Source: a virus. Taken from it: a stretch of 64,000 bases of DNA. A program made the translations under genes and the position numbers. Of the stretch, positions 4,352 through 20,294 are shown in pieces. The notes under the pieces were generated by a model, which was given only the letters and a program-made list of their open reading frames with translations, ran no database searches and had not been told where the DNA came from. Where the stretch lies: positions 1 through 64,000 of IMG/VR virus record IMGVR_UViG_3300020424_000002, one strand, 5' to 3'. The stretch's first letter is position 1; each line of letters opens with the position of its first letter.

Positions 4352-5167
4352 TTACCCCATCATTATAGCAGATTCAGTCTGTAATAAATTACTCTGTTCC
4401 TCTAACTTTTCTATTTCTGTATTTGCATCTTCAAGGATTGTTCTACCTTGTAATGTTACTCCGCCTGGTAATTGTATACCATCAAACTTAGATAAATTTG
4501 TACCCCATTGTCTTTTAATCAATGCAGTAACATATTTCTTCAACCAGACATCATTATATACATCTGTGAATTGTGTTGGGTCTATCTTTCTATAACAATC
4601 TATGATAATATATTCACCAGATGAAACTGCATTATTCCAGTCCATATCTAGATATAATCTATTTTGTGCTTTATTGAATCTAATTGGTACTTGACCAATT
4701 AATATTTCATCTAACAATTGAATATGGTTTTGTACCATTTCATATTGCACGATAGATGTAGAAGAGATATCATAAAGGTCATTTAACCTTAATTGATATC
4801 TGAGGTCAAACATATTAAGTCCAGACTTGTCTACGAATGGAAATACTCTTAATACTGAGTAAACTGATTCTGGAAGAACAACATATCCTTGTCCTTCTTT
4901 AAATGTCATATTACTAGATATATGTGAACCTGTAGATGATTGTGACATACTTGAATCTGCTTTTTGATTTGCAAGGTCGTTATCGTTAATTTGATGTTTT
5001 AAATATGTTCGAATAGTACCATCATAATGATACTCTGCAAAGTATTGTAATGCATCGTCTATGATATCATCAATTTGGTCATCATCCACATTAATTTCTA
5101 TAACTGGTTTACCCAGTTGTCTTAATGCATATTCTTTAAGTGTTGCTTTGCTATTTGGAGCTGCCAT
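4352..5167 (-). CDS. gp13: Neck protein gp13
   Basis: LKEYALRQLGKPVIEINVDDDQI, WLKKYVTALIKRQWGTNLSKF.GIQLPGGVTL. Confidence 0.96.
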   Translation of the reverse strand: MAAPNSKATLKEYALRQLGKPVIEINVDDDQIDDIIDDALQYFAEYHYDGTIRTYLKHQINDNDLANQKADSSMSQSSTGSHISSNMTFKEGQGYVVLPESVYSVLRVFPFVDKSGLNMFDLRYQLRLNDLYDISSTSIVQYEMVQNHIQLLDEILIGQVPIRFNKAQNRLYLDMDWNNAVSSGEYIIIDCYRKIDPTQFTDVYNDVWLKKYVTALIKRQWGTNLSKFDGIQLPGGVTLQGRTILEDANTEIEKLEEQSNLLQTESAIMMG

Positions 5168-5212: not shown

Positions 5213-5464
5213 TTATTTTTGATTTGAAAGTAAGAAATCGTCTATCTTTTTGTTAATAGTATCTAAAGAATCCATCATTCTTTCCATGTCTTTATGTAAA
5301 TCTTCCTTAGAAACAAAGTCTCTATTAACTTCTTCTCTGGTACGATTGAGTAGAATTTCTAATCGTTTAAGTTCATTATGTTGTTGAATTATAAACCATA
5401 GGAAAGGCCCTACAATTCCAGTAAGAACTAGATTCCATAGTAAATGTCCTGTTTCCATATCCAT
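5213..5464 (-). CDS. Small single-TM plus coiled-coil membrane protein
   Basis: Hydrophobic N-terminal helix (LLWNLVLTGIVGPFLWFII) followed by a coiled-coil-like segment. Confidence 0.7.
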   Translation of the reverse strand: MDMETGHLLWNLVLTGIVGPFLWFIIQQHNELKRLEILLNRTREEVNRDFVSKEDLHKDMERMMDSLDTINKKIDDFLLSNQK

Positions 5465-5493: not shown

Positions 5494-6213
5494 TTATTTA
5501 GGGAATCTTATGTTTCCACTGTCTGGACAAACTTCAAACACTGGTATATCGTTTACCTTTCTTGCTTCTATTTCTGGATGATTGTTTAGTTCTGTCTGGT
5601 CACCTTTCCAAGTAAATGAATTATTGAATGCAATCGAAATCCTATCAAAGTCTGTTTCTAATGGTTCTACATAATGTTGCATTGCAGAAGGAAATAATAA
5701 TACATCACCCTCTCTTGGTTCTACAACAAAGTTATCTCTAGTTCTTGCAGTTACATGTATGAAGTTTGACATATGTTTTGTTTGACCACTTAAAAATTGT
5801 AAAACTCCAGAACCCCTAGTTTCTTCTGGAACAGAAATATAAGCAACACCACTATACCAACAGCCTGGATGTGTATGCACATTATTATATCCATGTTGAT
5901 AGTTTATGTTTACCCAATAATTACCATGGTCTAAAATAAAGTTTTCATGATGTTCTCCACAATGAAATGGGAATACTTCTTTATTAAAAACTTCTTCTAC
6001 ACCATTAAGTAAAGATTGAAACATTGGTCTATCATTTACACCATCTACAGACTGCCAACCAGCACCATTATTAGACCTTCTTCGTCCTATAGGGTCTTCC
6101 TTTCTCATGGTATAGCATTCTTTTTTCATTGCATCTAGTTGTTCTTGAGAGACTAAACCTAAATCAAGTAAATTTGCTTTAAACACATGCCATGAAAACA
6201 TTGGTAAATACAT
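5494..6213 (-). CDS. 2OG-Fe(II) oxygenase (TIGR02466-like)
   Basis: WVNIN...NVHTHPGCWYSGVAYISVP, PREGDVLLFPSAMQHYV, DRISIAFN. Confidence 0.88.
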   Translation of the reverse strand: MYLPMFSWHVFKANLLDLGLVSQEQLDAMKKECYTMRKEDPIGRRRSNNGAGWQSVDGVNDRPMFQSLLNGVEEVFNKEVFPFHCGEHHENFILDHGNYWVNINYQHGYNNVHTHPGCWYSGVAYISVPEETRGSGVLQFLSGQTKHMSNFIHVTARTRDNFVVEPREGDVLLFPSAMQHYVEPLETDFDRISIAFNNSFTWKGDQTELNNHPEIEARKVNDIPVFEVCPDSGNIRFPK

Positions 6214-7088
6214 TATGAATACTCCTTTCTAGTTTTGAATTTTTTTGCATAATATGGTTCAGAAACTTTATTTTTAATATCTTCCCTTTGATTCATTTCC
6301 TTTAAATCACCTTTTATATCTGTTTCAAATTTTTTATTAATTTCTTCTTTAGTTAAATATGTAATTTTACTTTTCCAAGGATATCTAACAAAAGGTACGA
6401 TTTGTACCAGTGGTGTACCTTTAGAAATTATAAAAGATTCATCTACTTTAGGATAAAAAATTAAAATATTATTTGTAGTTATCTGATTAAACTTATCAGT
6501 ATCTATAATACCTTGCCATGTAGACAAATATGGATTATCAAAAAGAAAAGGGTCAAGATAATAACAAGATGTACCTTTGGGAGTTTTTACCAAAAAATCC
6601 ATTTTAAATTTAAGTTGCATCTTGTCATCTCTACTCATTCCTTTTAGTTGCCTTGCTGGATGACCGCCGGGCCTAGATAACATATCAGTTAATTCATGTA
6701 AATCAAGTTTATTAGTTTTAATATAATCTATTGCAGCTTCTGTTTGATTTTCTTTTACTAATGTTTTAATATAAGAAAGTTTTTCTGTCGACATATCTTT
6801 TAGTGCAAAGGATATAGACACTGGTTCACCATGATTACCTTTACTTAACAAAACTAAAACTGTATGTCTATTTCTAATAAGATACCCCATAGATAACCAA
6901 TCATGCATAGATGGACATTTTTTAATAGTATCTATTTCATTACCACCAAAATCTTTAATTATTGTTGGTAGTTTTTTATACCATTCTGGTTTTACTTTTT
7001 TTGCTGGAACTGGTTCAAATAAACTATTTTCAGTGTCTATAACACACTGAAATTCTATTTCCATTTCTTTTATTGGACATTGTTCCAT
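6213..7088 (-). CDS. Conserved phage protein (DUF6065-like / dUTPase-like beta fold)
   Basis: PEWYKKLP, TIKKCPSMHDWLSMGY, GIIDTD, IISKGTPLVQIVPF; a family that I recall often accompanies oxygenase clusters in marine phages. Confidence 0.6.
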   Translation of the reverse strand: MEQCPIKEMEIEFQCVIDTENSLFEPVPAKKVKPEWYKKLPTIIKDFGGNEIDTIKKCPSMHDWLSMGYLIRNRHTVLVLLSKGNHGEPVSISFALKDMSTEKLSYIKTLVKENQTEAAIDYIKTNKLDLHELTDMLSRPGGHPARQLKGMSRDDKMQLKFKMDFLVKTPKGTSCYYLDPFLFDNPYLSTWQGIIDTDKFNQITTNNILIFYPKVDESFIISKGTPLVQIVPFVRYPWKSKITYLTKEEINKKFETDIKGDLKEMNQREDIKNKVSEPYYAKKFKTRKEYS

Positions 7089-7258
7089 AATCGCTCGTGT
7101 AAATAATATAGTATAAGTTTTATTATAAAGTCAAAAGTCATGATTGCACCAGCAACCTCAACTGAACCTGTAAGGACATAACCTATTAATCCTGTAGTAA
7201 CTGTTGCAAGTATTCTCCATGAAAATGCTTTTGCAATTGACTTACTTTGTGAGTCCAA
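7070..7258 (-). CDS. DUF2061-like small membrane protein
   Basis: SIAKAFSWRILAT...KLILYYLHERLW. Likely TTG start at 7258 after AGGAG (the track starts at 7306). Confidence 0.8.
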   Translation of the reverse strand: MDSQSKSIAKAFSWRILATVTTGLIGYVLTGSVEVAGAIMTFDFIIKLILYYLHERLWNNVQ

Positions 7259-8030
7259 GCTGTCTCCTAATTTCTGTTGCAGAAATTGATTCAGTCTCTT
7301 TATCAAAAGATTCTTGTTCTATTTTATAACCTACATCTCTTCCATAAGTTATATTGACAATGTTTGGTACTTTTTGTATAATATAATGCACATTCTCTTC
7401 ATATCCTTCACCCAGTAAAAACATTTTTATGTTTTGTTTTACTGTTTTAAAATCAAAAGGATTCTTTTTACTGTTCTTCATTGCACGAATCATAATACAA
7501 ACTTGACCTGTTTTATCATAACATCTTTTAAATAATGCAAGATGACCATCATGAAAAGGTTGAAACCTACCCAACATTTGTGTAGTTGGTTTATTAATAT
7601 CAAATCTTCTGTTCTCTGCAAGTAATTCTCTTGCAATGACTTCGGAATGTAATTCACCATTTTGGTCTTCTACCCAATAGTCAACTTCATTTTTTAAAGG
7701 TCTTTGGAATGCTTTATTTGTATCTGCATATCTACCTTTTTCTATAGTATCCATAAAGATAATATAATCTGGGTTTAAGATTTGTCTTCCTTGAGTAAAA
7801 GGACAAACAAAATCCATAATTGCAAAAGGTTTATCGGAATCTCTGCATAGGTCTTTCATTCTATGCACCTGTCTGAGTCTACCTTCTTCTGAGAAATCCC
7901 AATCATCATGTTGGGCTCGGATTGCATCAGCATTGAAATGGTCTGCATCTAAATGTTCAAGTAGACATTTAGAAATGTAAGTCTTTCCACTGCCAGGCAA
8001 TCCAAAAATTAAAATTGTTTTTGTTTTCAT
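7242..8030 (-). CDS. Adenylyl-sulfate (APS) kinase-like domain fused to an HxGH nucleotidyltransferase domain
   Basis: P-loop GLPGSGKT, HFNADAIR..DWDFSEEGR, DFVCP; C-terminal GRFQPFHDGH, YGRDVGY, ISATEIR. Confidence 0.82.
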   Translation of the reverse strand: MKTKTILIFGLPGSGKTYISKCLLEHLDADHFNADAIRAQHDDWDFSEEGRLRQVHRMKDLCRDSDKPFAIMDFVCPFTQGRQILNPDYIIFMDTIEKGRYADTNKAFQRPLKNEVDYWVEDQNGELHSEVIARELLAENRRFDINKPTTQMLGRFQPFHDGHLALFKRCYDKTGQVCIMIRAMKNSKKNPFDFKTVKQNIKMFLLGEGYEENVHYIIQKVPNIVNITYGRDVGYKIEQESFDKETESISATEIRRQLGLTK

Positions 8031-8038
8031 ACTAATAC

Positions 8039-8866
8039 TTATTGTTCTTCCCAGAGACGAACTTCATCTCCACGAACAACCATACTTGTTCTATATGGAA
8101 ATTGATTTTCTACATTGTAATCTGCATCTGGGCCTGGATGTCTATGAGTCATTGCACCATTCATAATCACTAATCTATTTGGTTTGTATTTAACTCTACC
8201 TATTTCATGAGCCCCTTCATCTTCTGGTATTCCAGAGTATTCTTCTGCATGACTATGGTATTCACTATTGTAAAAAATTAAATCTCCACCCCAATCATCT
8301 TTCCATTCTTTTTGGTCATAATAAAGAAATGATAAATTATTTAAACAATCATCTCCTAATCCTGTATCTTCGTGTACAGTTCCATCTTGTCCTTTTGTTT
8401 GTCCATTAAATCCACAATATTGAAATTTAACCCAATCAAAATGAAAGTCTTGTCTTAATTTGTGAATAAACCAATCTATCATAGAATTTCTGTAACCAGC
8501 ATTTTTTGGTGATATAGTATTTTGTTTCCACTTTGATTGATTTTTCCATCTATCACTATTTAATGCTCTTTTTTCTGCCCACCATTCTGGACTTTTTGTT
8601 TTTGGCTCCCAACCCCTATCTTTTATATTAATGTAAATAGATTCACCCCAATATAAATGTCTCATTTTATCATTACGAATTACTCTATTTTGTCTACCCC
8701 ATTTTGTAGTATTAAATCTCATTTCATACCAAGAATCATGAATACTTGCTGGTAAATAATTATCAATTACCCAGATTTGTTTAAAGGGTAAACTAGGAAT
8801 AGGTTTAGGTTTTTGCAAGAATTGAATATCTATAGGTTGCATTAACCATTCGTAATGGTTTGACAC
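8039..8866 (-). CDS. 2OG-Fe(II) oxygenase (prolyl-hydroxylase-like)
   Basis: NGQTKGQDGTVHED (HxD), W..DWGGDLIF, YKPNRLVIMNGAMTHR, YRTSMV. Confidence 0.85.
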   Translation of the reverse strand: MSNHYEWLMQPIDIQFLQKPKPIPSLPFKQIWVIDNYLPASIHDSWYEMRFNTTKWGRQNRVIRNDKMRHLYWGESIYINIKDRGWEPKTKSPEWWAEKRALNSDRWKNQSKWKQNTISPKNAGYRNSMIDWFIHKLRQDFHFDWVKFQYCGFNGQTKGQDGTVHEDTGLGDDCLNNLSFLYYDQKEWKDDWGGDLIFYNSEYHSHAEEYSGIPEDEGAHEIGRVKYKPNRLVIMNGAMTHRHPGPDADYNVENQFPYRTSMVVRGDEVRLWEEQ

Positions 8867-9504
8867 TAAACTGACCTCTTATCCTCACCGATGTCTTCTT
8901 GTCCACCATTAATATCTAAGGTATCAGAACTTTTATCGAATCTATCGTCCGCCCAAGAAGTTTCATAAAAAGTATCTTTACTTGGTATAGATGGCAATTG
9001 ATTTTCATAAAACTCGTAATCTTTTAAATCTATTTCAAGTGTTTGATTTATTTCTTCTTTTAATCTATAGTAAACACCATTTATAAAATCCATCCAATCT
9101 AAAACTCTTCTTCCAATTTGTCTTCTTGGGTCGTTTGACATTTCTCTAGATGCAATTACAAGTTGTGCTGTATTTTTAAATCCAACTTCTTCGATATTAC
9201 TTTGTAGGTGTGAAAGTCTTTCTTCGACTATATCTTCAAGGTCTTCAATTATTTGTTTTTGCATAGTTATACTTGCAGGCGGGTCACATAATCTAATATA
9301 TTCTTCTATTTCAGAAATGTGTTCTTCACTTAAAGATAAGGTTTCTTCATTTAAAACATAGTCGGTTTGATTATCAAAAGGACAATAAAATAAAACATCG
9401 TAATCAAATGAGAATTGTGGTTTTTGTGTTTTTTCATAGTTCCAACGAAGTCCTTTTTCATTGGTTATATGTAACACATTGTTGTCATCATACACTAATA
9501 ACAT
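8866..9504 (-). CDS. Hypothetical protein, possible tail-fibre assembly/chaperone-like
   Basis: Directly downstream of the repeat fibre gene, with RBS GGAG. The segment GF.N..Q....S.DPRRQ.GR.V.DWMD...LP resembles proteins that follow tail-fibre genes. Confidence 0.5.
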   Translation of the reverse strand: MLLVYDDNNVLHITNEKGLRWNYEKTQKPQFSFDYDVLFYCPFDNQTDYVLNEETLSLSEEHISEIEEYIRLCDPPASITMQKQIIEDLEDIVEERLSHLQSNIEEVGFKNTAQLVIASREMSNDPRRQIGRRVLDWMDFINGVYYRLKEEINQTLEIDLKDYEFYENQLPSIPSKDTFYETSWADDRFDKSSDTLDINGGQEDIGEDKRSV

Positions 9505-9542
9505 AATATAATCTCCATAATATAATAGTATATAGTCTGGTT

Positions 9543-11141
9543 TTAAGGCCAGGGTTTATTCAAATCACCATCCCATGTAGATACTGGTCTAGTTGCTGGT
9601 CGAGTCGATGGTCTAGTTGCTGGTCTAGTTGATGGTCGAGTCGATGGTCTTGTATTTGTTTGTTCAAAACTTGTAGGTCTATTAATTGTTTGCTCAAAAG
9701 TAGCAGGTCTACTGTTTTGTAGTTGTGCTGGTCTCGGTATTGTTTGTTCAAAACTCGTAGGTCTAGAAATTGTTTGCTCAAAGCTTGTAGGTCTACTAAT
9801 AGTAACTTCAAAACTTGATGGTCTTGGAGTTTGGAAATTAGTAGGTCTGTTAATAGTTACCTCATAAGAAGTAGGTCTATTAATGGTTACCTCATAAGAA
9901 GTAGGTCTTGGTATTGTTTGTTCATATGAAGGCGGTCTATAATTTTGTATTTGAAAATTAGCAGGTCTGTTAATAGTTCCTTGAGTTTGATAATTTGCTG
10001 GTCTATTAATAGTTTGGGTAGTTTGATAATTTGCTGGTCTAGTCCCTTGAGTCTGATAATTAGCAGGTCTATTAATAGTTTGTTCATAAGAAGAAGGTCT
10101 ACTATTTTGTATTTGAAAATTTGTAGGTCTACTATTTTGTATTTGATAATTAGCAGGTCTACTATTTTGTATTTGATATGATGGTGGTCTATACGCTTGT
10201 ATTTGAAAATTAGCAGGTCTAGGATTAGAAATCTGGTAAGTACCAGGCCTAAAAGCAGTCACTTGGAATGATGGATTTGTTAAACCAAATTTAGGATTAT
10301 AACTTCCAGCTACAGTTTGTTGATAGGATGCTGGTCTAGTCCCTTGAGTCTGATAAGAAGTAGGTCTTGGCAACGATTGAACTTGATAATACTGTGGACG
10401 ATAACCAGTAGTTTGAAAATTTGTAGGTCTACTCCCTTGAGTCTGATAATTTGCTGGTCTACTCCCTTGAGTCTGATAAGTAGTTGGTCTTGGTATAGTC
10501 ACTTCATAACTTGTTGGCCTAGGATTCGTTATCTGATAAGTTGTAGGTCTAGGATTAGTAATCTGAACATTATATGATGTTGGTCTAGGATTAGTAATCT
10601 GAACATTATATGATGTAGGTCTAGAACCTTGAGTTTGGAAATTAGTAGGTCTGTATATTGTTACTTCATAAGAAGCAGGCCTATTAATTGTTTGTTCATA
10701 AGAGCCAGGCCTAGGAATAGTTTGCTCAAAACTTGATGGTCTACTATTTTGTAATTGAGAAGGTCTAGGAATAGTTTGTTCAAATGATGAAGGTCTATTG
10801 ATTGTTTGTTCAAAACTTGATGGTCTATTAATAGTAACTTCAAAACTTGTAGGTCTAGGTGTTTGGAAATTCGTTGGCCTAGGTATAGTCACTTCAAATG
10901 AAGAAGGTCTATTAATTGTTACCTCAAAAGGTTGTTGAAATGGTTGCTGAAATCCCTGTTGAAATGGTTGTTGAAATGGTTGCTGAAAAGGTTGTTGTAC
11001 CTGTATTGTACCTGTTTGAAATTCCCATCCTGTAGGAGTTTTTCTTTTTACATCAACGACTTTCTTCCACCCAGATGGAGTTTTGACTCTCCATCCTGTA
11101 GTGTCATTCCATCCCGCTGGGGTTTTTACTTTTGAACTCAT
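9543..11141 (-). CDS. Arg-Pro repeat fibre/adhesin with mirror-symmetric repeat architecture (putative giant beta-hairpin)
   Basis: N-terminal 3x K-T-P-x-G-W motif, 6x QQPF, 40 RPxx[FYL] units, 6x RPST, C-terminal WDGDLNKPWP; directly downstream of the 1349-aa fibre. Confidence 0.8.
   Translation of the reverse strand: MSSKVKTPAGWNDTTGWRVKTPSGWKKVVDVKRKTPTGWEFQTGTIQVQQPFQQPFQQPFQQGFQQPFQQPFEVTINRPSSFEVTIPRPTNFQTPRPTSFEVTINRPSSFEQTINRPSSFEQTIPRPSQLQNSRPSSFEQTIPRPGSYEQTINRPASYEVTIYRPTNFQTQGSRPTSYNVQITNPRPTSYNVQITNPRPTTYQITNPRPTSYEVTIPRPTTYQTQGSRPANYQTQGSRPTNFQTTGYRPQYYQVQSLPRPTSYQTQGTRPASYQQTVAGSYNPKFGLTNPSFQVTAFRPGTYQISNPRPANFQIQAYRPPSYQIQNSRPANYQIQNSRPTNFQIQNSRPSSYEQTINRPANYQTQGTRPANYQTTQTINRPANYQTQGTINRPANFQIQNYRPPSYEQTIPRPTSYEVTINRPTSYEVTINRPTNFQTPRPSSFEVTISRPTSFEQTISRPTSFEQTIPRPAQLQNSRPATFEQTINRPTSFEQTNTRPSTRPSTRPATRPSTRPATRPVSTWDGDLNKPWP
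9579..10997 (-). repeat. Coding tandem repeat array (mostly 24/30/36-nt units plus terminal 12-nt units)
   Basis: Recurrent plus-strand ggtct (Arg-Pro codons) with mostly 30-nt period; 12-nt gttgaaatggtt-type and ggtcgagtcgat/ggtctagttgct units at the two ends. Confidence 0.92.
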
Positions 11142-11173: not shown

Positions 11174-14100
11174 CTATGAGTATGTTATCCAGATATCACC
11201 TACTGCTCCATCTGAACTGCCTGGCGCAGAACTATGTATGAATACATTTCTCATTGCTTTTGCACTTGCACCAATTGTTGTATAACTTGTTGTTGCAGCT
11301 CCTGTGAATGCAGATGTTCCACTTACTGCTAAACTACTTAATGTACCAACACTTGTAATATTAGTTTGAGCTGCAGTTTGTATTGTACCTGTTACATTAC
11401 CAACTAAGTTACCAGTAATATTACCAGATGAACTAATTGAACCACAATCAACAAGGTCAGCTGCAATGTCTGCTCTAGTAATTGTTAAGTCACCACTTGA
11501 TGCACCTGTAAATGAACCTGTTCCTACTATAACTCTGTCATGTGATTCATCCCAACCTATAAACACATTTGAAGAACTTCCTCTTTCGAGAACAATACCA
11601 GAATCACCAGAAGGTGAACCAGAGTTACCTGTTCCAAGTTCTATAAGTTGGTCTTCAATAGTTGTGTTTGTTGCACTGTTGGTTACTGTTGAACCATTAA
11701 CTGTTAAGTTTCCTGTGACTACCACATTACCACTTGCAGTAATATCAGTTGCAGCTATATCTGCAAAGGTTACATCTGAGGTTGTTGATACTGCCTGTCC
11801 AATAGAAACTGTTGGAGTTGCACCCTCTGAACCAGAACCAGATACAGATACACCAGTTCCACCAGAAAGACCAGCAACATAGTTACCAGAAGTTTCTGAA
11901 CCAAGTGCAATATCATCTACTGCAAAGTTAAGTTTACCACTTGCATCATCGTAAGTAACTGCAATATTTGTTTCTGTATTTGATGATACCATACCACCAG
12001 CAACATCTTGAACTGCTTCTGTAAAGTCTGATACTGCACCACTTGTAATACTAATGTCTACATTAGATGCACTTGTTACTCTACCTTTTGAATCTACTGC
12101 TACTTGAGCAACACTGTCTGCATCACCATAAGTTGCAGCTGATACACCAGAGTTTGCAAGTGTAATTGGTAATGCAACATTACCTGTTCCATCAAATGAT
12201 TGTGCTGAGTCTGTAGTTGCATCTCCTGTTACTGTAAAGTTTCTTGAACTTGCAAGTGCTGTTGCAGATGCAGCGTTACCAGTTGTACTTCCAGAAGAAC
12301 CAGATACATTACCTGTGATATTTGCAACTAATGTACCTACTGCATATCCTGTTGCAGTAGTATCTACTGTTGTTGAAGGTACTGTTTGTGTATCTGCAAA
12401 TAATCTAAATGTATTATCTGTAGATGCATCAAAGAATAAACCACCATATTTTGCTGTCCCACCTTCTACATACTTACCATAAAAACCAAAGTCTGTTGAG
12501 TTTCCTGTATTACCAGAAGTAAATCCTTGGAAGTTTGAATCTGTTGTTGTTGAACCTGTTTGTGTTGTAGTACCTGTAACTGTCAAGTTACCACTAACTG
12601 TTAAGTTATTTCCAATAGTTACATTGGATGGTAATCCAACTGTAACAGTACCAGAACTTTCTGAGACATCTACTTCTTGAGATGTTCCAGAGAATGTAAG
12701 TGTATTTCCTAGTGCAATTGCAGTTGAGGCTGAACCATCGGATACTGTTATACTACTGTTTGAAAGTTTACTATTTGCAATAGAACCTGCTAACATACTG
12801 TTTTCTACAGTACCAGAACCTATTGTCAATGCAATACTAGTATTACCTAGGTCTGTCATAACTCCAGAACCAGTTACATCTCCTGTGTAAGATAGTGTTG
12901 GGTCGTTTACATTGAAGTCTAAAGTACCATCTGAGTCTTCATAGGTAACTGAGATACCACTTTCTGTATTAGATGATACCATTCCACCAACTACATCTTG
13001 AACTCTTTCTGTAGTATGGTAGAGGTTACTTGACCCCTCGGATAAGTTGTCTGTGTTAAATCCAGAAATACTTGTTACTAAATCGATAGTTCCATCACTA
13101 TCTTCATAAGTTGCAGTGATACCTGTTTCAGTATTTGAAGTGAACATTGCTCCTACAGTGTCTTGAATTACTTCTGATAGGTCTATATTTGAAGAACCAT
13201 CGAATGAAACACCATGAATTGTTCTTGCAGTTTCTAATGCAGTTGCAGTTGCAGCGTTTCCTGTTGTATCTTGGTTAAGTGTTCCAACTGTAAAATCTAA
13301 AGTACCATCTGCATCATCGTATGCAACTGTAATACCACTTTCGGTATTAGATGTTACCATTGCACCTACGATATCTTCTACAGACTCAGTAAGGTCTGTA
13401 ATAGTTGATGCAGTTGTACTTACTACTAAATCGATTGTGCCATCGTCATCTTGATATGTTGCACCAACACCTGTTTCAGTATTACCAGAGAACATTGCAC
13501 CAACAATGTCTTGTACTCTTTCTGCATTTATTGTTACATCACCAGATGATACAGTAAAATCTGTTCCATCAAATGTTGCAATACCTTTGTTTGTTTCTGT
13601 TGCATCTTCTACAGATATAGTTGCAGTTGAACCTTCACCCTGTGTATGAGATACATCAATACCTTCACCAGCAGATATATCTAATAGATAATTACCAGTT
13701 GTATCTGTTCCTAATGCAACCGAGTCAGCTGCAATTGTAGATGATATGGTTAAGTTCCCTGTTCCATCAAAAGTACCAGAACCAGTTACATCACCACTCA
13801 ATGCAATTACTCTTGAATTTGCAAGTGCAGTTGCTGTATCAGCATTACCTTCTAAGTCTGCAATTAATTTACCTGTTGAATGTCCTGTTCCACTTGTATT
13901 AACTGTAGTTGTAGGTTCTGATTGGTTTCCATGAAACAATCTAAACTTACTTGATTCAGATGCATCCCATAGTAAACCAGCATATTTTGTGGTTGAACCT
14001 TCAACATATTGACCATACAAACCGAAGTCTGTTGCATTTGCAGCGTTATCTTTTGCAACTTTTACTGAACCATCTGCTACTTCTAAAGTAGTAGATGATA

Positions 14101-15223
14101 CTGTTGTTGTACTTCCTTGTACTGTAAGGTTACCAGATAGAGTTAAATTGGCTGCACCAACATCTCCTGTTACTGTTAAATCGTTTCCAATAGTTACATC
14201 ATCTGGTAATCCTACTGTTACTGTTGCAGTTTCAGAACCAGAACCAGATACTTCAATTTCATTTGAAGTTCCAGAGATTCCAGCAACATAGTTTCCTGTT
14301 GTGTCTGTTCCTAGTGCAACACTGTTAGCTGCAATTGTTGTAGATATAGATGTATTTCCTAGGTCTGTCATTGTTGCAGAACCAGTTACATCTCCTGTCA
14401 AAGAAATAGTAGGGTCATTCACATTAAAGTCTAGAGTACCATCTGAGTCATCATAGGTCACTCCTATACCACTTTCTGTGTTAGATGATACCATTGCACC
14501 AACGACATCTTGAACTCTCTCAGTCGTATGATATAGGTTTGTTGAACCTTCTGTTAATTGGTCTGTGCTTGGATTTTCACCTATGTGAACATTTCCACCC
14601 ATACCACTGTGGTTTGCACAATAGTAATAATGTGGATTCATTGCATCCATTTCGAAACACACTTCTACATATGCACCAGATGAACCTGCTGTTCCTACTT
14701 TATTATAGATAGTATATCCAGAAGACATTTCTGAACCACTACCATGTGTTCCATCACTGGTTGTAGAGAATCTTAAAGGATGTGATGCATTAGATGAATC
14801 TGATTGGTCAAATCTGTAAACAACATTAGGAGAAAGTTTTGCTGTTTGTTGTGACCCACCATCTAATAAAAACTTACCACCACTTACTGTGACTACTACT
14901 TTGTGATAATATGGTGCAGTTGTATTGTTTAATTGTTGTTCTACTGCAAGGTCGATAGTTCCATCACTATCTTCATAACCTACAGTTATATTGGTTTCAG
15001 TGTTAGAACTAAACATAGCTCCCACTGTATCTTGAATGAATTCTGCACCTACTGTTGCACTAAATGTACCAGATGAATCATCATATGAAAATGATATACC
15101 TGTATGTGTTCCAGCACCGAACAGACTTGAAATCTGGTCTTGTATCGCTTCAATAGCACCTGTAGAGTCTAGTTCTCCAGATGCATTCAAAAGGTCTGCA
15201 AGATATCTTGCTTTTGTTGGCAT
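11174..15223 (-). CDS. Long tail fibre protein (modular repeats, cupredoxin-like insert)
   Basis: G/S/T/D-rich; ~8 copies of QD.VGAM.SSNTE.GI.V.Y.DSDGT.D; ATALA..R.I...GD.TG repeats; YYCANHSGMGG insert; C-terminal SSAPGSSDGAVGDIWITYS. Confidence 0.88.
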   Translation of the reverse strand: MPTKARYLADLLNASGELDSTGAIEAIQDQISSLFGAGTHTGISFSYDDSSGTFSATVGAEFIQDTVGAMFSSNTETNITVGYEDSDGTIDLAVEQQLNNTTAPYYHKVVVTVSGGKFLLDGGSQQTAKLSPNVVYRFDQSDSSNASHPLRFSTTSDGTHGSGSEMSSGYTIYNKVGTAGSSGAYVEVCFEMDAMNPHYYYCANHSGMGGNVHIGENPSTDQLTEGSTNLYHTTERVQDVVGAMVSSNTESGIGVTYDDSDGTLDFNVNDPTISLTGDVTGSATMTDLGNTSISTTIAANSVALGTDTTGNYVAGISGTSNEIEVSGSGSETATVTVGLPDDVTIGNDLTVTGDVGAANLTLSGNLTVQGSTTTVSSTTLEVADGSVKVAKDNAANATDFGLYGQYVEGSTTKYAGLLWDASESSKFRLFHGNQSEPTTTVNTSGTGHSTGKLIADLEGNADTATALANSRVIALSGDVTGSGTFDGTGNLTISSTIAADSVALGTDTTGNYLLDISAGEGIDVSHTQGEGSTATISVEDATETNKGIATFDGTDFTVSSGDVTINAERVQDIVGAMFSGNTETGVGATYQDDDGTIDLVVSTTASTITDLTESVEDIVGAMVTSNTESGITVAYDDADGTLDFTVGTLNQDTTGNAATATALETARTIHGVSFDGSSNIDLSEVIQDTVGAMFTSNTETGITATYEDSDGTIDLVTSISGFNTDNLSEGSSNLYHTTERVQDVVGGMVSSNTESGISVTYEDSDGTLDFNVNDPTLSYTGDVTGSGVMTDLGNTSIALTIGSGTVENSMLAGSIANSKLSNSSITVSDGSASTAIALGNTLTFSGTSQEVDVSESSGTVTVGLPSNVTIGNNLTVSGNLTVTGTTTQTGSTTTDSNFQGFTSGNTGNSTDFGFYGKYVEGGTAKYGGLFFDASTDNTFRLFADTQTVPSTTVDTTATGYAVGTLVANITGNVSGSSGSTTGNAASATALASSRNFTVTGDATTDSAQSFDGTGNVALPITLANSGVSAATYGDADSVAQVAVDSKGRVTSASNVDISITSGAVSDFTEAVQDVAGGMVSSNTETNIAVTYDDASGKLNFAVDDIALGSETSGNYVAGLSGGTGVSVSGSGSEGATPTVSIGQAVSTTSDVTFADIAATDITASGNVVVTGNLTVNGSTVTNSATNTTIEDQLIELGTGNSGSPSGDSGIVLERGSSSNVFIGWDESHDRVIVGTGSFTGASSGDLTITRADIAADLVDCGSISSSGNITGNLVGNVTGTIQTAAQTNITSVGTLSSLAVSGTSAFTGAATTSYTTIGASAKAMRNVFIHSSAPGSSDGAVGDIWITYS

Positions 15224-19077: not shown

Positions 19078-19623
19078 TTAATAAGGCAACCTATCTATTA
19101 CTAAATGTATTCTGTCTATGTCACTTTCGTTTCTAACACCATGATTTTTTGTGTTCTCTAATTCATAAACATTACCTTTCTCAAGATAATAGTCTTTATC
19201 TAAACATTTCATGTAAACTTTTGGATTAGTAACAATTGGTATATGGTATCTTCTAGTTTTAGAAAAAATATTTTCTCTGCCAGTAGGTACATCTTGATGT
19301 TCTCTAACACTACAACCTGCTAAAAGTTTTATGAATACAGCATTTATTAATTTTGCAGGGCCATGAATACTATCTAAAGTTCTATTAATATCATCTAATT
19401 CATTAGCAAACAAAAGATATTCTTCGTGATATTCTATTTGATTGTATTCGTTAGATTGGTTTGGGTCAAAATCTCTTTTATTTGCTGACCATTTAAGAGG
19501 TATACAACGAGTATCTTCATGAGCACCACCTCTGCGTTTAGTCCAAACTTCCCATCTTTCTTGAGTAATAGGATTTAATTTTTCAATGAGATTATCGGCA
19601 TTTATAGAAAAAAGTGTTTGCAT
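19078..19623 (-). CDS. Aspartyl/asparaginyl beta-hydroxylase family 2OG-Fe(II) oxygenase
   Basis: L.AGCSVREHQD, RYHIPIVTN, G.VYELENTKNHGVRN...DRIHLVID. Confidence 0.88.
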   Translation of the reverse strand: MQTLFSINADNLIEKLNPITQERWEVWTKRRGGAHEDTRCIPLKWSANKRDFDPNQSNEYNQIEYHEEYLLFANELDDINRTLDSIHGPAKLINAVFIKLLAGCSVREHQDVPTGRENIFSKTRRYHIPIVTNPKVYMKCLDKDYYLEKGNVYELENTKNHGVRNESDIDRIHLVIDRLPY

Positions 19624-20294
19624 TAATCTGCATCTACTGTAAGACCAAAAGGATATAGAGTCCCAGTGTCAGGCAATGCTCCATTACCACTACCATCTCG
19701 AGGATAAGATTCAGATATATCATTAATATCAAGAACTACCCTTGCTAGATTAGAATTATTAGTGGAAAAGTAATTTCCATTATTATTCATCCATCGAGTA
19801 TACGCCGTAGCACTACCGCCTGGAGCAACTGCCACTACTATTATGGCACCATCATAATCACCTTCACCTTCATCTTCCCAAAAAGACCTAGCAAAATATT
19901 GAATAACACTAGTATTATTAGTATATGTATAACTATTACCCCCTGTATAATAGGTGGAAAAAGTGTTACCATATGCGAAACTTCTCCTTCGAGAAGTAAT
20001 GGTCTGATGACCTACAAAACTATGTACACTTCCACTCCAAGATGGGCCGTCACCATAGACTGCAATAGGTGCTGTTCCACGATTACTTACGCCAGGGAAT
20101 CCATCTTGATAAGCACCACGACATTGACTAAAACTTTTTGCTCCAGCTTTACTTTTTTTAAATCCTGTAAGATTTCTTATTCTTTGATGATTAAAATTTA
20201 TTGTTGTACCGCTTGTCCCGCCAGACTCTACATGGATTTGATTTAAACTTATTGGCCCTGTTGAGGGTAGTGTTGTACCTTGCCAAAAAGGCAT
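19623..20294 (-). CDS. Putative tail-fibre tip adhesin/receptor-binding protein
   Basis: N-terminal LPSTGPISLNQIHVESGGTSG...IRNL, typical of small proteins encoded after S74-chaperoned fibres; aromatic/Gly-rich C-terminal part. Confidence 0.65.
   Translation of the reverse strand: MPFWQGTTLPSTGPISLNQIHVESGGTSGTTINFNHQRIRNLTGFKKSKAGAKSFSQCRGAYQDGFPGVSNRGTAPIAVYGDGPSWSGSVHSFVGHQTITSRRRSFAYGNTFSTYYTGGNSYTYTNNTSVIQYFARSFWEDEGEGDYDGAIIVVAVAPGGSATAYTRWMNNNGNYFSTNNSNLARVVLDINDISESYPRDGSGNGALPDTGTLYPFGLTVDAD

What the first reader, a model, noticed from the sequence alone, without database searches (positions are those of the whole stretch)
5494..11141. Candidate fibre-tailoring cassette: hairpin protein + chaperone-like gene + hydroxylases + APS-kinase fusion
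Seen: directly downstream of the Pro/Arg/Ser/Thr/Tyr/Asn-rich hairpin gene, in one tightly overlapping run within the late structural module, are a chaperone-like ORF (8866), a prolyl-hydroxylase-like 2OG oxygenase (8039), an APS kinase/HxGH nucleotidyltransferase (7242), DUF2061 (7070), a DUF6065-like protein (6213) and a TIGR02466-like oxygenase (5494). Established: such genes are usually filed as auxiliary metabolic genes, and 2OG-Fe(II) enzymes hydroxylate Pro/Arg/Asn/Asp in proteins. Inference: this is a substrate-plus-tailoring-enzyme system (RiPP- or collagen-like logic) that decorates the ~46 RP motifs of a virion fibre, rather than reprogramming host metabolism.
Basis: inference. Interest (0 to 1): 0.78.

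Follow-up and report, generated by a model that had tools for sequence, protein, structure and literature searches.

The report
Phage fibre repeat protein with oxygenase module
One lineage of uncultured marine T4-like phages always encodes a proline-rich repeat fibre protein followed by the same four fast-evolving genes, two of them intact iron/2-oxoglutarate oxygenases, which makes the fibre a testable but unproven candidate substrate for them.

Summary
All seven ORFs exist as described, on the minus strand, tightly packed between a 1349-aa fibre gene and neck gene gp13. The repeat protein has exactly 46 RP motifs, mostly 10 residues apart.

Family labels are only partly right:
- TIGR02466 and DUF2061 are solid.
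- The "prolyl-hydroxylase-like" gene is a divergent PF13640-type oxygenase with intact HxD...H and RxS residues.
- The "DUF6065-like" gene has a dUTPase-superfamily fold.
- "Chaperone-like" rests on weak leads.
- "APS kinase" is only kinase-domain similarity; the fused transferase is closest to NMN adenylyltransferases.

In more than 100 related viral loci, the repeat protein, o212, the PF13640-type oxygenase, the dUTPase-fold protein, the TIGR02466 oxygenase and a small membrane protein occur all together or not at all, in fixed order. They mark one clade on the gp13 tree, so this counts as one evolutionary event. Four of these core genes (o212, both oxygenases, the dUTPase-fold protein) diverge as fast as the repeat protein, while the kinase fusion stays about 93% conserved. 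That fusion is absent from two of three subclades and also occurs in unrelated phages.

Fibre tailoring by the oxygenases is plausible (about 0.4) but not shown. Sulfation is unsupported. First readers of this scan noted the same cassette in three other genomes.

The parts
11174..15223 (-). 1349-aa fibre protein directly upstream. Its C-terminus is ...GAVGDIWITYS. It is context and the likely attachment partner of the repeat protein.
   Evidence: ORF. PHROG hits to tail fibre and structural proteins. C-terminal sequence. A homologous fibre gene always precedes the repeat gene in relatives.
9543..11141 (-). Repeat protein (REP), 532 aa. It has three N-terminal K-T-P-x-G-W motifs, six QQP(F/Y) units, 46 RP motifs (mostly decapeptides such as RPTSYEVTIP), a central non-repeat NPKFG segment, a (TRPx)6 tract and a conserved C-terminal WDGDLNKPWP. 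It is the candidate substrate.
   Evidence: Translation. Repeat count and spacing. Alignment with 7 relatives, with invariant ends and variable repeats. The KTPxGW coding motif occurs only here in the window, 3 copies against 0 expected.
8866..9504 (-). o212: 212-aa acidic protein with an N-terminal six-strand beta domain, a helical bundle and a disordered acidic tail. It may be a fibre assembly factor, but the evidence is weak.
   Evidence: No Pfam, PHROG or NCBIfam hit. Model pLDDT 84. No significant PDB match. Weak BFVD rows to DUF4376 proteins and tail assembly chaperones. Atlas leads at 0.84-0.86 to XkdW, Caudo_TAP_N and DUF4376. It always lies directly behind the repeat genes, or behind GT8like in subclade II.
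8039..8866 (-). P4H-like gene: a divergent PF13640-type Fe(II)/2-oxoglutarate oxygenase with H165-x-D167...H241 and R259-x-S261.
   Evidence: PF13640 at 24.3 bits, below the cut-off. The catalytic residues are invariant in 24 sequences down to 32% identity. Five of ten sampled remote homologues (about 200 aa and two larger fusion proteins) pass the PF13640 cut-off.
7242..8030 (-). kinNT: a P-loop kinase (APS-kinase-like, residues 1-120) fused to a minimal HxGH/ISxTxxR nucleotidyltransferase (residues 150-262) that is closest to NMN adenylyltransferases. It is a subclade-specific insert and probably acts on a small-molecule nucleotide.
   Evidence: Pfam and NCBIfam hits. phrog_10255. Family profile against PDB: APS kinase 2yvu at E 2.4e-10 for residues 5-85, NMNAT 1f9a at E 4e-8 for residues 149-193. 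Homologues in unrelated phages. Alignment and motifs.
7070..7306 (-). DUF2061 small membrane protein. It overlaps kinNT by 65 nt and travels with it.
   Evidence: PF09834 at 75 bits. Present only where kinNT is present.
6213..7088 (-). o291: a dUTPase-superfamily-fold protein with a helical insert. It keeps motif I-IV-like residues (D63, S174, D196/D198, Q229), no motif V was seen, and it evolves fast.
   Evidence: Model pLDDT 79. Foldseek dUTPase rows at probability 1.0, E about 3e-3. VIA Z 8.2, rmsd 3.3 over 124 residues to ASFV dUTPase, with ranks 1-14 and 17-23 dUTPases, dCTP deaminases or herpesvirus dUTPase-related proteins. Motif III/IV alignment to chlorella-virus dUTPase. Invariant residues. 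phrog_7084. Atlas neighbours carry DUF6065 in 23-30% of members.
5494..6213 (-). TIGR02466/PF13759 oxygenase with invariant H113-x-H115...H180 and R191-x-S193.
   Evidence: over cut-offs. Invariant residues in 36 orthologues.
5213..5464 (-). o83: 83-aa protein with one transmembrane helix and a coiled coil. It is the last gene of the conserved block, directly before gp13.
   Evidence: Sequence. phrog_12220 and phrog_462. Present in every module-bearing locus that reaches this position.
4352..5167 (-). gp13-type neck protein. It is the downstream boundary and the phylogenetic marker used here.
   Evidence: phrog_211. 55% identity to Pelagibacter phages Mosig and HTVC008M. Tree.

Best explanation
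This is a lineage-fixed fibre-accessory module of a clade of uncultured marine T4-like myophages, sister to the HTVC008M/Mosig pelagimyophages.

The Pro/Arg/Gln-rich repeat protein probably docks by its KTPxGW motifs onto the tip of the preceding 1349-aa fibre (inferred). It is co-inherited with four cytoplasmic proteins:
- o212, a possible assembly factor.
- A PF13640-type Fe(II)/2OG oxygenase.
- A dUTPase-fold protein of unknown activity.
- A TIGR02466 Fe(II)/2OG oxygenase.
An 83-aa membrane protein (o83) completes the block.

The most likely mechanism (inferred, not shown) is that one or both oxygenases hydroxylate residues of the repeat units late in infection, before or during fibre assembly. 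Proline is the most plausible target. In one subclade a GT8-like transferase would then add sugar, as in collagen or plant hydroxyproline-rich glycoproteins.

The kinase-nucleotidyltransferase fusion and DUF2061 are a later insertion with a separate, conserved small-molecule (nucleotide cofactor) role. They are not part of the fibre chemistry.
For: Shown:
- The ORFs and their tight packing within the structural block.
- All-or-none occurrence and fixed order REP > [GT8like] > o212 > P4Hlike > [kinNT, DUF2061] > o291 > TIGR02466 > o83 > gp13, in loci seeded independently on P4Hlike (44 loci), gp13 (80 loci) and o291 (79 loci).
- In the gp13-seeded sample, all 9 module-bearing loci with enough upstream DNA have a repeat ORF scoring 30 or more. 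All 60 module-free loci score 4 or less, and 16 of those have at least 6 kb upstream.
- The module persists through gp13 divergence to 56% identity and P4Hlike divergence to 28%, although the region is described as hypervariable (PMC7029224).
- Three different repeat flavours (RPxxYExTI; HRSPFTYQ/QEPNIRS; RPATGTYPAQ/QQPYGF) keep the same enzymes. All are rich in Pro preceded by R or Q.
- Catalytic residues of both oxygenases are invariant.
- Within the near group, mean identity to the window is REP 60%, o212 55%, P4Hlike 65%, o291 61% and TIGR02466 68%, against kinNT 93% and gp13 94%. Identity of the four core genes tracks REP (Spearman 0.58-0.80). kinNT lies between them and does not (0.31).
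- A GT8-like gene lies between the repeat genes and o212 in subclade II.
- No N-terminal signal sequences are visible in the enzymes (read).
- Contigs from RNA libraries of three studies bridge the REP/o212 junction.
Against: - All carriers form one clade (1 change on the gp13 tree). The linkage could therefore be plain vertical inheritance of a fixed block.
- The sister clade has a remote P4Hlike homologue (Mosig_00058, E 3e-8) and TIGR02466 paralogues in the same slot, beside glycine-rich fibre proteins that lack RP repeats.
- PF13640 and TIGR02466 do not fix a substrate, and no hydroxylated peptide is known.
- o291 has a nucleotide-enzyme fold with motif-like residues, which fits protein tailoring poorly.
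- o212 has no significant match to any chaperone.
- The identity correlations rest on 15 non-independent loci.
- RNA-library contigs may include carried-over DNA and give no timing.
Confidence: 0.4

Rival explanations
1. The enzymes are ordinary accessory or auxiliary genes of the host-recognition island. They act on host metabolites or cytoplasmic envelope precursors. They sit beside the repeat fibre only because this clade inherited the block as a unit.
For: - The slot between the fibres and gp13/gp14 is a known hypervariable island holding fibres plus unrelated enzymes in pelagimyophages and cyanomyophages (PMC7029224).
- Mosig and HTVC008M fill the slot with 2OG oxygenases, ferrochelatase, haem oxygenase and pcyA.
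- The module has a single origin.
- Two remote PF13640-type homologues lie in contigs without any Pro-rich protein within 8 kb.
Against: - Within the clade the block is not variable at all.
- The four core genes evolve as fast as the fibre, and in step with it, while the small-molecule-type kinNT embedded among them is highly conserved.
- The gene order places the enzymes between the fibre genes and the neck genes, with overlapping stops and starts.
Confidence: 0.3
2. The core proteins serve fibre assembly or structure rather than covalent tailoring of the repeat protein. Alternatively, the oxygenases modify another virion protein such as the 1349-aa fibre. On this view o291 is an exapted dUTPase fold, as in herpesvirus tegument proteins.
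For: - o291 matches herpesvirus dUTPase-derived non-enzymatic proteins (pp71 at Z 6.7, ORF10 at Z 5.8) as well as true dUTPases.
- Its fast evolution is untypical of housekeeping dUTPases.
- o212 has weak tail-assembly-type leads.
Against: - Both oxygenases keep their metal and 2OG ligands strictly.
- o291 keeps motif I-IV-like polar residues invariant.
Both points argue for catalysis or ligand binding.
Confidence: 0.12
3. The cassette modifies nucleotides or phage DNA. The dUTPase-like protein, the kinase-nucleotidyltransferase, the oxygenases and, in subclade II, a glycosyltransferase would act as in base hypermodification pathways.
For: - dUTPase-superfamily fold of o291.
- Nucleotide-type domains in kinNT.
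- kinNT homologues lie near a DNA ligase and a helicase loader in Stenotrophomonas phage DLP_6.
Against: - Neither oxygenase matches the TET/JBP or AlkB families; they match PF13640 and PF13759.
- kinNT is absent from two of three subclades.
- o291 evolves too fast for a core nucleotide enzyme.
- The block is embedded in structural genes.
Confidence: 0.08
4. The kinase-nucleotidyltransferase fusion is a minimal PAPS synthase that supplies sulfate for tyrosine or serine sulfation of the fibre (the +80 Da idea).
For: - The kinase-domain profile finds APS kinases first (2yvu at E 2.4e-10).
- Near-group repeats carry Y/F-E pairs.
- kinNT is present only in the subclade with those repeats.
Against: - The transferase half is closest to NMN adenylyltransferases, not ATP sulfurylase.
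- PF01747, PF00685 and PF13469 find nothing in the 146-kb record.
- The same fusion occurs in unrelated phages without such fibres.
- L032 and L034 keep only the transferase half.
Confidence: 0.05

Closest known systems
Chlorovirus PBCV-1 prolyl 4-hydroxylase with the virus's own (Pro-Ala-Pro-Lys)n repeats
   Same: A virus encodes both a P4H-type Fe(II)/2OG oxygenase and Pro-rich repeat proteins that are plausible substrates.
   Different: - There the activity on the repeat peptides was measured; here nothing is measured.
- Here the oxygenase is a very divergent PF13640 relative.
- Here it is part of a fixed six-gene block with a second (TIGR02466) oxygenase and a dUTPase-fold protein, inside a phage tail-fibre operon.
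Host recognition cluster (HRC) of pelagimyophages and cyanomyophages (Zaragoza-Solas et al. 2020, PMC7029224)
   Same: Same genomic position, upstream of the neck genes. The island holds fibres plus seemingly unrelated enzymes, including glycosyltransferases. An Asp/Asn beta-hydroxylase is core to the group.
   Different: The HRC is described as non-syntenic and hypervariable, and its transferases are read as acting on host LPS. The block here is invariant in order and content across a whole clade and co-diverges with one fibre protein.
Hydroxyproline-linked glycosylation systems: Skp1 in Dictyostelium and Toxoplasma, plant HRGPs, mimivirus collagen hydroxylase/glycosyltransferase L230 (from my own knowledge)
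   Same: The logic of oxygenase followed by glycosyltransferase acting on Pro- or Lys-rich repeats. Subclade II carries a GT8-like gene next to the repeat genes.
   Different: No evidence of hydroxyproline or sugar here. The GT8-like gene is absent from the window's own subclade. The repeat chemistry is different (R-P-x-x-Y/F decapeptides).
Tandem 2OG-oxygenase arrays of marine cyanomyophages such as Syn9
   Same: PF13640, PF13759 and TIGR02466-type oxygenases of unknown substrate clustered near structural genes of T4-like marine phages.
   Different: Those arrays vary in copy number and content. Here exactly two oxygenases are fixed, each as a single orthologue, together with a repeat protein.
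NadR, COASY and PAPS synthase (two-domain kinase + HxGH nucleotidyltransferase enzymes)
   Same: kinNT joins a P-loop kinase to an HxGH/ISxTxxR nucleotidyltransferase.
   Different: The domain order and size differ (262 aa in all). Neither half reaches an equivalog cut-off. The substrate is unknown.

Membership tests
TIGR02466 / PF13759 (2OG-FeII_Oxy_5), ORF 5494-6213 | HMM score over the curated cut-offs | tested here: met
   TIGR02466 at 91.9 bits against 62.5; PF13759 at 75.7 bits against 27.
TIGR02466 / PF13759 (2OG-FeII_Oxy_5), ORF 5494-6213 | Conserved metal and 2OG ligands | tested here: met
   H113, H115, H180, R191 and S193 are invariant in 36 orthologues.
PF13640 (2OG-FeII_Oxy_3, P4H-type oxygenases), ORF 8039-8866 | HMM score over the gathering cut-off | tested here: not met
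   24.3 bits against 27. Remote homologues of the family's profile (P0074, P0078, P0084, P0091, P0158) do pass at 30-37 bits. It is therefore a divergent relative rather than a scored member.
PF13640 (2OG-FeII_Oxy_3, P4H-type oxygenases), ORF 8039-8866 | HxD...H facial triad and RxS 2OG-binding motif | tested here: met
   H165, D167, H241, R259 and S261 are invariant in 24 sequences.
Prolyl 4-hydroxylase (functional class) | Hydroxylation of peptidyl proline | not testable with these tools
   No biochemical data. The family profile found no solved-structure relative by sequence at E up to 1.
APS kinase (PF01583), N-terminal half of ORF 7242-8030 | HMM score over the cut-off, with a match beyond the P-loop | tested here: inconclusive
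   The single sequence scores 19.7 bits against 21.1. The family profile finds APS kinases first in PDB (2yvu at E 2.4e-10 over residues 5-85), including the D-x-D-x-x-R region.
HxGH nucleotidyltransferases (PF01467), C-terminal half of ORF 7242-8030 | HMM over the cut-off, HxGH motif and ISxTxxR motif | tested here: met
   29.7 bits against 21. FHDGH and ISATEIR are conserved. The nearest solved relatives are NMN adenylyltransferases.
PAPS synthase | ATP sulfurylase domain joined to an APS kinase | tested here: not met
   PF01747 has no match in the record. The transferase half matches NMNAT-type enzymes.
DUF2061 (PF09834), ORF 7070-7306 | HMM over the cut-off | tested here: met
   75 bits against 23.1.
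DUF6065 (PF19541), ORF 6213-7088 | HMM match | tested here: not met
   No hit at E up to 1 for 13 family members or in the six-frame genome search. The only support is an Atlas lead: neighbouring clusters carry PF19541 in 23-30% of their members.
dUTPase superfamily, ORF 6213-7088 | All-beta dUTPase fold | tested here: met
   VIA Z 8.2, rmsd 3.3 over 124 residues (6kz6). Ranks 1-14 and 17-23 are dUTPases, dCTP deaminases or herpesvirus dUTPase-related proteins. Foldseek probability 1.0. Model pLDDT 79.
dUTPase superfamily, ORF 6213-7088 | Five catalytic motifs of trimeric dUTPases | tested here: inconclusive
   Motif III/IV-like GIIDTD and GTPLVQIV align to chlorella-virus dUTPase at E 0.36. 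Motif I/II-like residues are invariant. No motif V-like Gly-rich arm is seen in the sequence.
Tail-fibre assembly chaperones, ORF 8866-9504 | Sequence or fold match to a known chaperone family | tested here: inconclusive
   No HMM hit. BFVD rows to DUF4376 proteins (E 5.6e-3, probability 0.72) and tail assembly chaperones (probability 0.14 or less). Atlas leads at 0.84-0.86. PDB searches gave only generic helical bundles.
Pelagimyophage host recognition cluster (PMC7029224) | Located upstream of neck gene gp14 among fibre genes; non-syntenic and hypervariable | tested here: inconclusive
   The position fits. The block itself is invariant within its clade, which is contrary to the hypervariable description.
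RiPP systems | Short precursor with leader and core, plus dedicated recognition and protease components | tested here: not met
   The candidate substrate is a 532-aa fibre-type protein with docking motifs. No RiPP-class family was hit in any cassette ORF.

The most novel reading that the evidence does not exclude
The block is a dedicated maturation pathway for a phage tail-fibre protein. Two Fe(II)/2OG oxygenases hydroxylate the R-P-x-x-Y/F repeat units, and a GT8-like enzyme glycosylates them in one subclade. A dUTPase-fold protein and o212 act as new, co-evolving pathway components. This would give abundant marine phages a collagen- or HRGP-like modified fibre.
Probability: 0.3. Interest if true: 0.8.

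Novelty: new variant of a known kind. Interest (0 to 1): 0.55.

Why it matters
Marine T4-like phages carry many Fe(II)/2OG oxygenases whose substrates are unknown. They are routinely filed as auxiliary metabolic genes. Here two of them are locked, across a whole lineage that is widespread in marine metagenomes, to one rapidly evolving proline-rich fibre protein, and they diverge in step with it. That gives a concrete substrate candidate and a simple experiment.

If confirmed, it would show enzymatic hydroxylation, and possibly glycosylation, of a phage receptor-binding appendage. It would change how such "AMGs" are annotated. It would also add a dUTPase-fold protein to protein-maturation chemistry.

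If refuted, the block is still a clean clade marker, and it is a counter-example to the idea that the host-recognition island is uniformly hypervariable.

Tried and rejected
- Megablast of the region, and tblastn of ORF 8039 and ORF 6213, against 50,697 phage records: no match. This means only that no isolate record in that collection, as served here, is close enough; the tool warns that records of the window's own or a very near genome may be left out.
Contexts of the metagenomic homologues P0005-P0049 could not be read that way, so IMG/VR loci were used instead.
It gave only 9 loci, although these revealed subclade III.
- Profile searches of P4Hlike, o291 and GT8like against PDB sequences gave nothing significant.
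- Foldseek and VIA searches for o212 gave only generic helical bundles.
- A second homologous-protein run with the o291 alignment listed only close relatives.
- An alignment of remote P4Hlike homologues was too divergent to seed a scan. A single remote homologue (P0074) gave two loci made of oxygenase-type ORF arrays with no Pro-rich protein. Two loci are too few to weigh.
- Exact T4 late-promoter TATAAATA: none on the minus strand between 19048 and 3435. Only ATAAATA-like sites lie upstream of the 1349-aa fibre gene and gp13, so promoter assignment is left open. The sigma-70-type scan was below the shuffle expectation.
- Literature searches for TIGR02466/PF13759, DUF6065, DUF2061 and phage fibre hydroxylation found no functional data.
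- The strict "mirror/hairpin" reading was not tested further. The two terminal blocks are a direct duplication of unit order, but that order is itself symmetric.
- RNA-library contigs cover parts of the block, but parts without cover carry no meaning.

Full report
**What is there**

The window is the first 64 kb of a 146-kb IMG/VR virus record, estimated 81% complete. Its neck protein gp13 (4352-5167) is 55% identical to those of Pelagibacter phages Mosig and HTVC008M and of Methylophilales phage Melnitz, and 46-51% identical to cyanomyophage proteins. The phage is therefore an uncultured marine T4-like myophage near the pelagimyophages.

They are joined by overlaps of 1-65 nt or gaps of 8-38 nt. 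They lie between a 1349-aa fibre gene (11174-15223) and the neck genes gp13 and gp14. An 83-aa transmembrane/coiled-coil ORF (5213-5464) completes the run.

**The repeat protein**

The 532-aa product of 9543-11141 has these parts, in order:
- Three K-T-P-x-G-W motifs. Their coding pattern occurs nowhere else in the window.
- Six QQP(F/Y) units.
- 46 RP dipeptides, 30 of 45 spacings being exactly 10 residues. Typical units are RPTSYEVTIP, RPANYQTQGS and RPANYQIQNS.
- A central non-repeat segment.
- A (TRPx)6 tract.
- A conserved WDGDLNKPWP end.

The upstream fibre ends in ...GAVGDIWITYS. This ending recurs in a distant relative's fibre. End-to-end docking of the two proteins is plausible but inferred.

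The N-terminal block 78-143 and the C-terminal block 422-487 repeat the same unit order (10, 8, 10, 10, 10, 8, 10). That is a direct duplication. Because the order is itself symmetric, a mirror reading is not excluded.

**The enzymes**

- ORF 5494 is a clear TIGR02466/PF13759 oxygenase. H113, H115, H180, R191 and S193 are invariant in 36 orthologues.
- ORF 8039 scores just under the PF13640 cut-off. H165-x-D167, H241 and R259-x-S261 are invariant in 24 sequences down to 32% identity. A profile search of 1.84 billion representatives found 620 relatives. Of ten remote relatives sampled (eight of about 200-265 aa plus two larger fusion proteins), five pass PF13640. It is a divergent P4H-type oxygenase, and proline specificity is not established.
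- ORF 7242 joins a P-loop kinase to a minimal HxGH/ISATEIR nucleotidyltransferase. The family profile finds APS kinases first for the kinase half (E 2.4e-10) and NMN adenylyltransferases for the transferase half (E 4e-8). NCBIfam ranks NMNAT models first.
- ORF 7070 is DUF2061.
- ORF 6213 has no Pfam hit, and PF19541 (DUF6065) does not match. Its model (pLDDT 79) has a dUTPase-superfamily fold: Foldseek probability 1.0, and VIA Z 8.2 with rmsd 3.3 over 124 residues. Ranks 1-14 and 17-23 are dUTPases, dCTP deaminases or herpesvirus dUTPase-derived proteins. GIIDTD and GTPLVQIV align with dUTPase motifs III and IV. The Atlas gives DUF6065 only as a lead.
- ORF 8866 models as a beta domain plus a helical bundle plus an acidic tail (pLDDT 84). 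It has no significant structural match. Only weak tail-assembly-type leads exist.

**Distribution**

Three independent seeds were used.

1. Seeding on ORF 8039 gave 44 IMG/VR loci at 28-90% identity. Every locus long enough shows fibre > repeat protein > o212 > P4Hlike > (kinNT, DUF2061) > o291 > TIGR02466 > o83 > gp13.
2. Seeding on gp13 is blind to the cassette and gave 80 further loci.
   - The five core genes are present together or absent together.
   - All 9 module-bearing loci with enough upstream DNA carry an ORF rich in [RQ]xP..[YFI] motifs, scoring 30-68.
   - All 60 module-free loci score 4 or less, including 16 with at least 6 kb upstream.
3. Seeding on o291 gave 384 confirmed stretches. 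All 66 new loci fetched show the same order.

Three subclades differ in repeat flavour and in one accessory gene:
- Subclade I, which includes the window: RPxxYExTI repeats, with kinNT and DUF2061.
- Subclade II: two repeat ORFs with HRSPFTYQ, QEPNIRS and RQPLIYQ units, plus a 505-544-aa (654 aa in one locus) GT8-like gene. Nine of 15 members match PF01501, and the FxDxD motif is invariant.
- Subclade III: RPATGTYPAQ and QQPYGFQQNY repeats, with neither accessory gene.

**How much the co-occurrence is worth**

On a gp13 tree of 111 distinct sequences, the 52 module-bearing rows form one side of a single branch (SH-aLRT 100), so one change suffices. The association is therefore one evolutionary event, and common descent can explain it.

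Two further observations go beyond descent.
- The block lies in what is described as a non-syntenic, hypervariable host-recognition cluster (PMC7029224), yet it is never broken up within the clade.
- Among 15 distinct near relatives (gp13 at least 88% identical), mean identity to the window is 60% for the repeat protein, 55% for o212, 65% for P4Hlike, 61% for o291 and 68% for TIGR02466. It is 93% for kinNT and 94% for gp13. Identity of the four core genes tracks that of the repeat protein (Spearman 0.58-0.80), whereas kinNT does not (0.31), although it lies between them. Gene-specific fast evolution in step with the fibre fits proteins that deal with a fast-changing macromolecule. These 15 loci are not independent, so this is suggestive only.

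**Evidence that cuts the other way**

- Mosig and HTVC008M have glycine-rich fibre proteins in the equivalent position. Their slot holds other oxygenases, ferrochelatase, haem oxygenase and pcyA.
- Mosig_00058 is a remote P4Hlike homologue (E 3e-8), and Mosig also has TIGR02466 paralogues. Related oxygenases therefore sit beside fibres that lack RP repeats.
- The dUTPase fold of o291 is not an obvious protein-tailoring fold.

**The kinase fusion**

- It is absent from subclades II and III.
- L032 and L034 keep only the transferase half.
- Homologues at about 40% identity occur in Xylella, Stenotrophomonas, Xanthomonas and Clavibacter phages. There they lie beside a COG3236 gene (Bacata), or among genes that include a DNA ligase and a helicase loader (DLP_6).
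- No ATP sulfurylase or sulfotransferase family matches in the record.
It is best read as an independently mobile small-molecule enzyme. The proposed +80 Da sulfation has no support.

**Expression**

No terminator-like site falls in the intergenic gaps. Contigs from RNA libraries of three studies bridge the repeat-gene/o212 junction (9066-9608, 9119-9615, 9130-9615). Two more bridge the fibre/repeat-gene junction. This is compatible with co-transcription. DNA carry-over cannot be excluded, and no timing is available.

**Verdict**

The most likely reading (about 0.4) is a clade-fixed fibre-accessory module in which the two oxygenases modify the repeat fibre protein. An inherited accessory island is the main rival (about 0.3).

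The kinase fusion and DUF2061 should be taken out of the model.

Earlier first-reader notes of this scan describe the same cassette in three other genomes, which agrees with the distribution found here. Follow-up notes describe analogous Pro-repeat plus oxygenase (plus DUF6065-like) pairings in unrelated phages. Those were not checked here. If verified, they would supply the independent origins that this clade alone cannot.

Noticed in passing
L036:4846-6678: In one subclade II relative the first repeat protein ends in an intein/Hint domain (PF14890, E 1e-9). The domain closes with ...LVHN, followed by 11 residues and a stop. The next ORF, 4 nt later, continues the repeats. This may be a self-cleaving C-terminal module on a fibre repeat protein.
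   Followed up: partly
window 19078-20294 (-), with 20294-22888: A second fibre-plus-hydroxylase arrangement. An Asp/Asn beta-hydroxylase (PF05118, E 2.7e-11) is chained by TAATG overlaps behind a 223-aa ORF and an 864-aa fibre-type gene. PMC7029224 lists this hydroxylase as core to pelagimyophages.
   Followed up: partly
L036:7906-9444, L045:5063-6691 and 17 other loci: Subclade II carries a 505-544-aa (654 aa in one locus) protein with a C-terminal GT8-like domain (invariant FxDxD) and an unassigned N-terminal half of about 300 aa. It always lies between the second repeat gene and o212.
   Followed up: partly
L008:10408-10920 (Pelagibacter phage Mosig, Mosig_00058): The gene annotated 'putative DNA endonuclease V' (phrog_274) matches the P4Hlike family profile at E 3e-8. 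It is more likely a small 2OG oxygenase, so the PHROG label looks misleading.
   Followed up: partly
L032:10848-11282 and L034:10848-11282: Here kinNT is reduced to its 144-aa nucleotidyltransferase half, with the kinase domain lost, while DUF2061 is kept.
   Followed up: no
window 6213-8866 compared with near relatives: Mosaic evolutionary rates within one operon: fast (REP, o212, P4Hlike), slow (kinNT, DUF2061), fast (o291, TIGR02466), slow (gp13, gp14; o83 is intermediate at about 79%).
   Followed up: yes
window 9543-11141: The two terminal repeat blocks (residues 78-143 and 422-487) share the same unit order. That makes them a direct duplication rather than a strict palindrome.
   Followed up: partly
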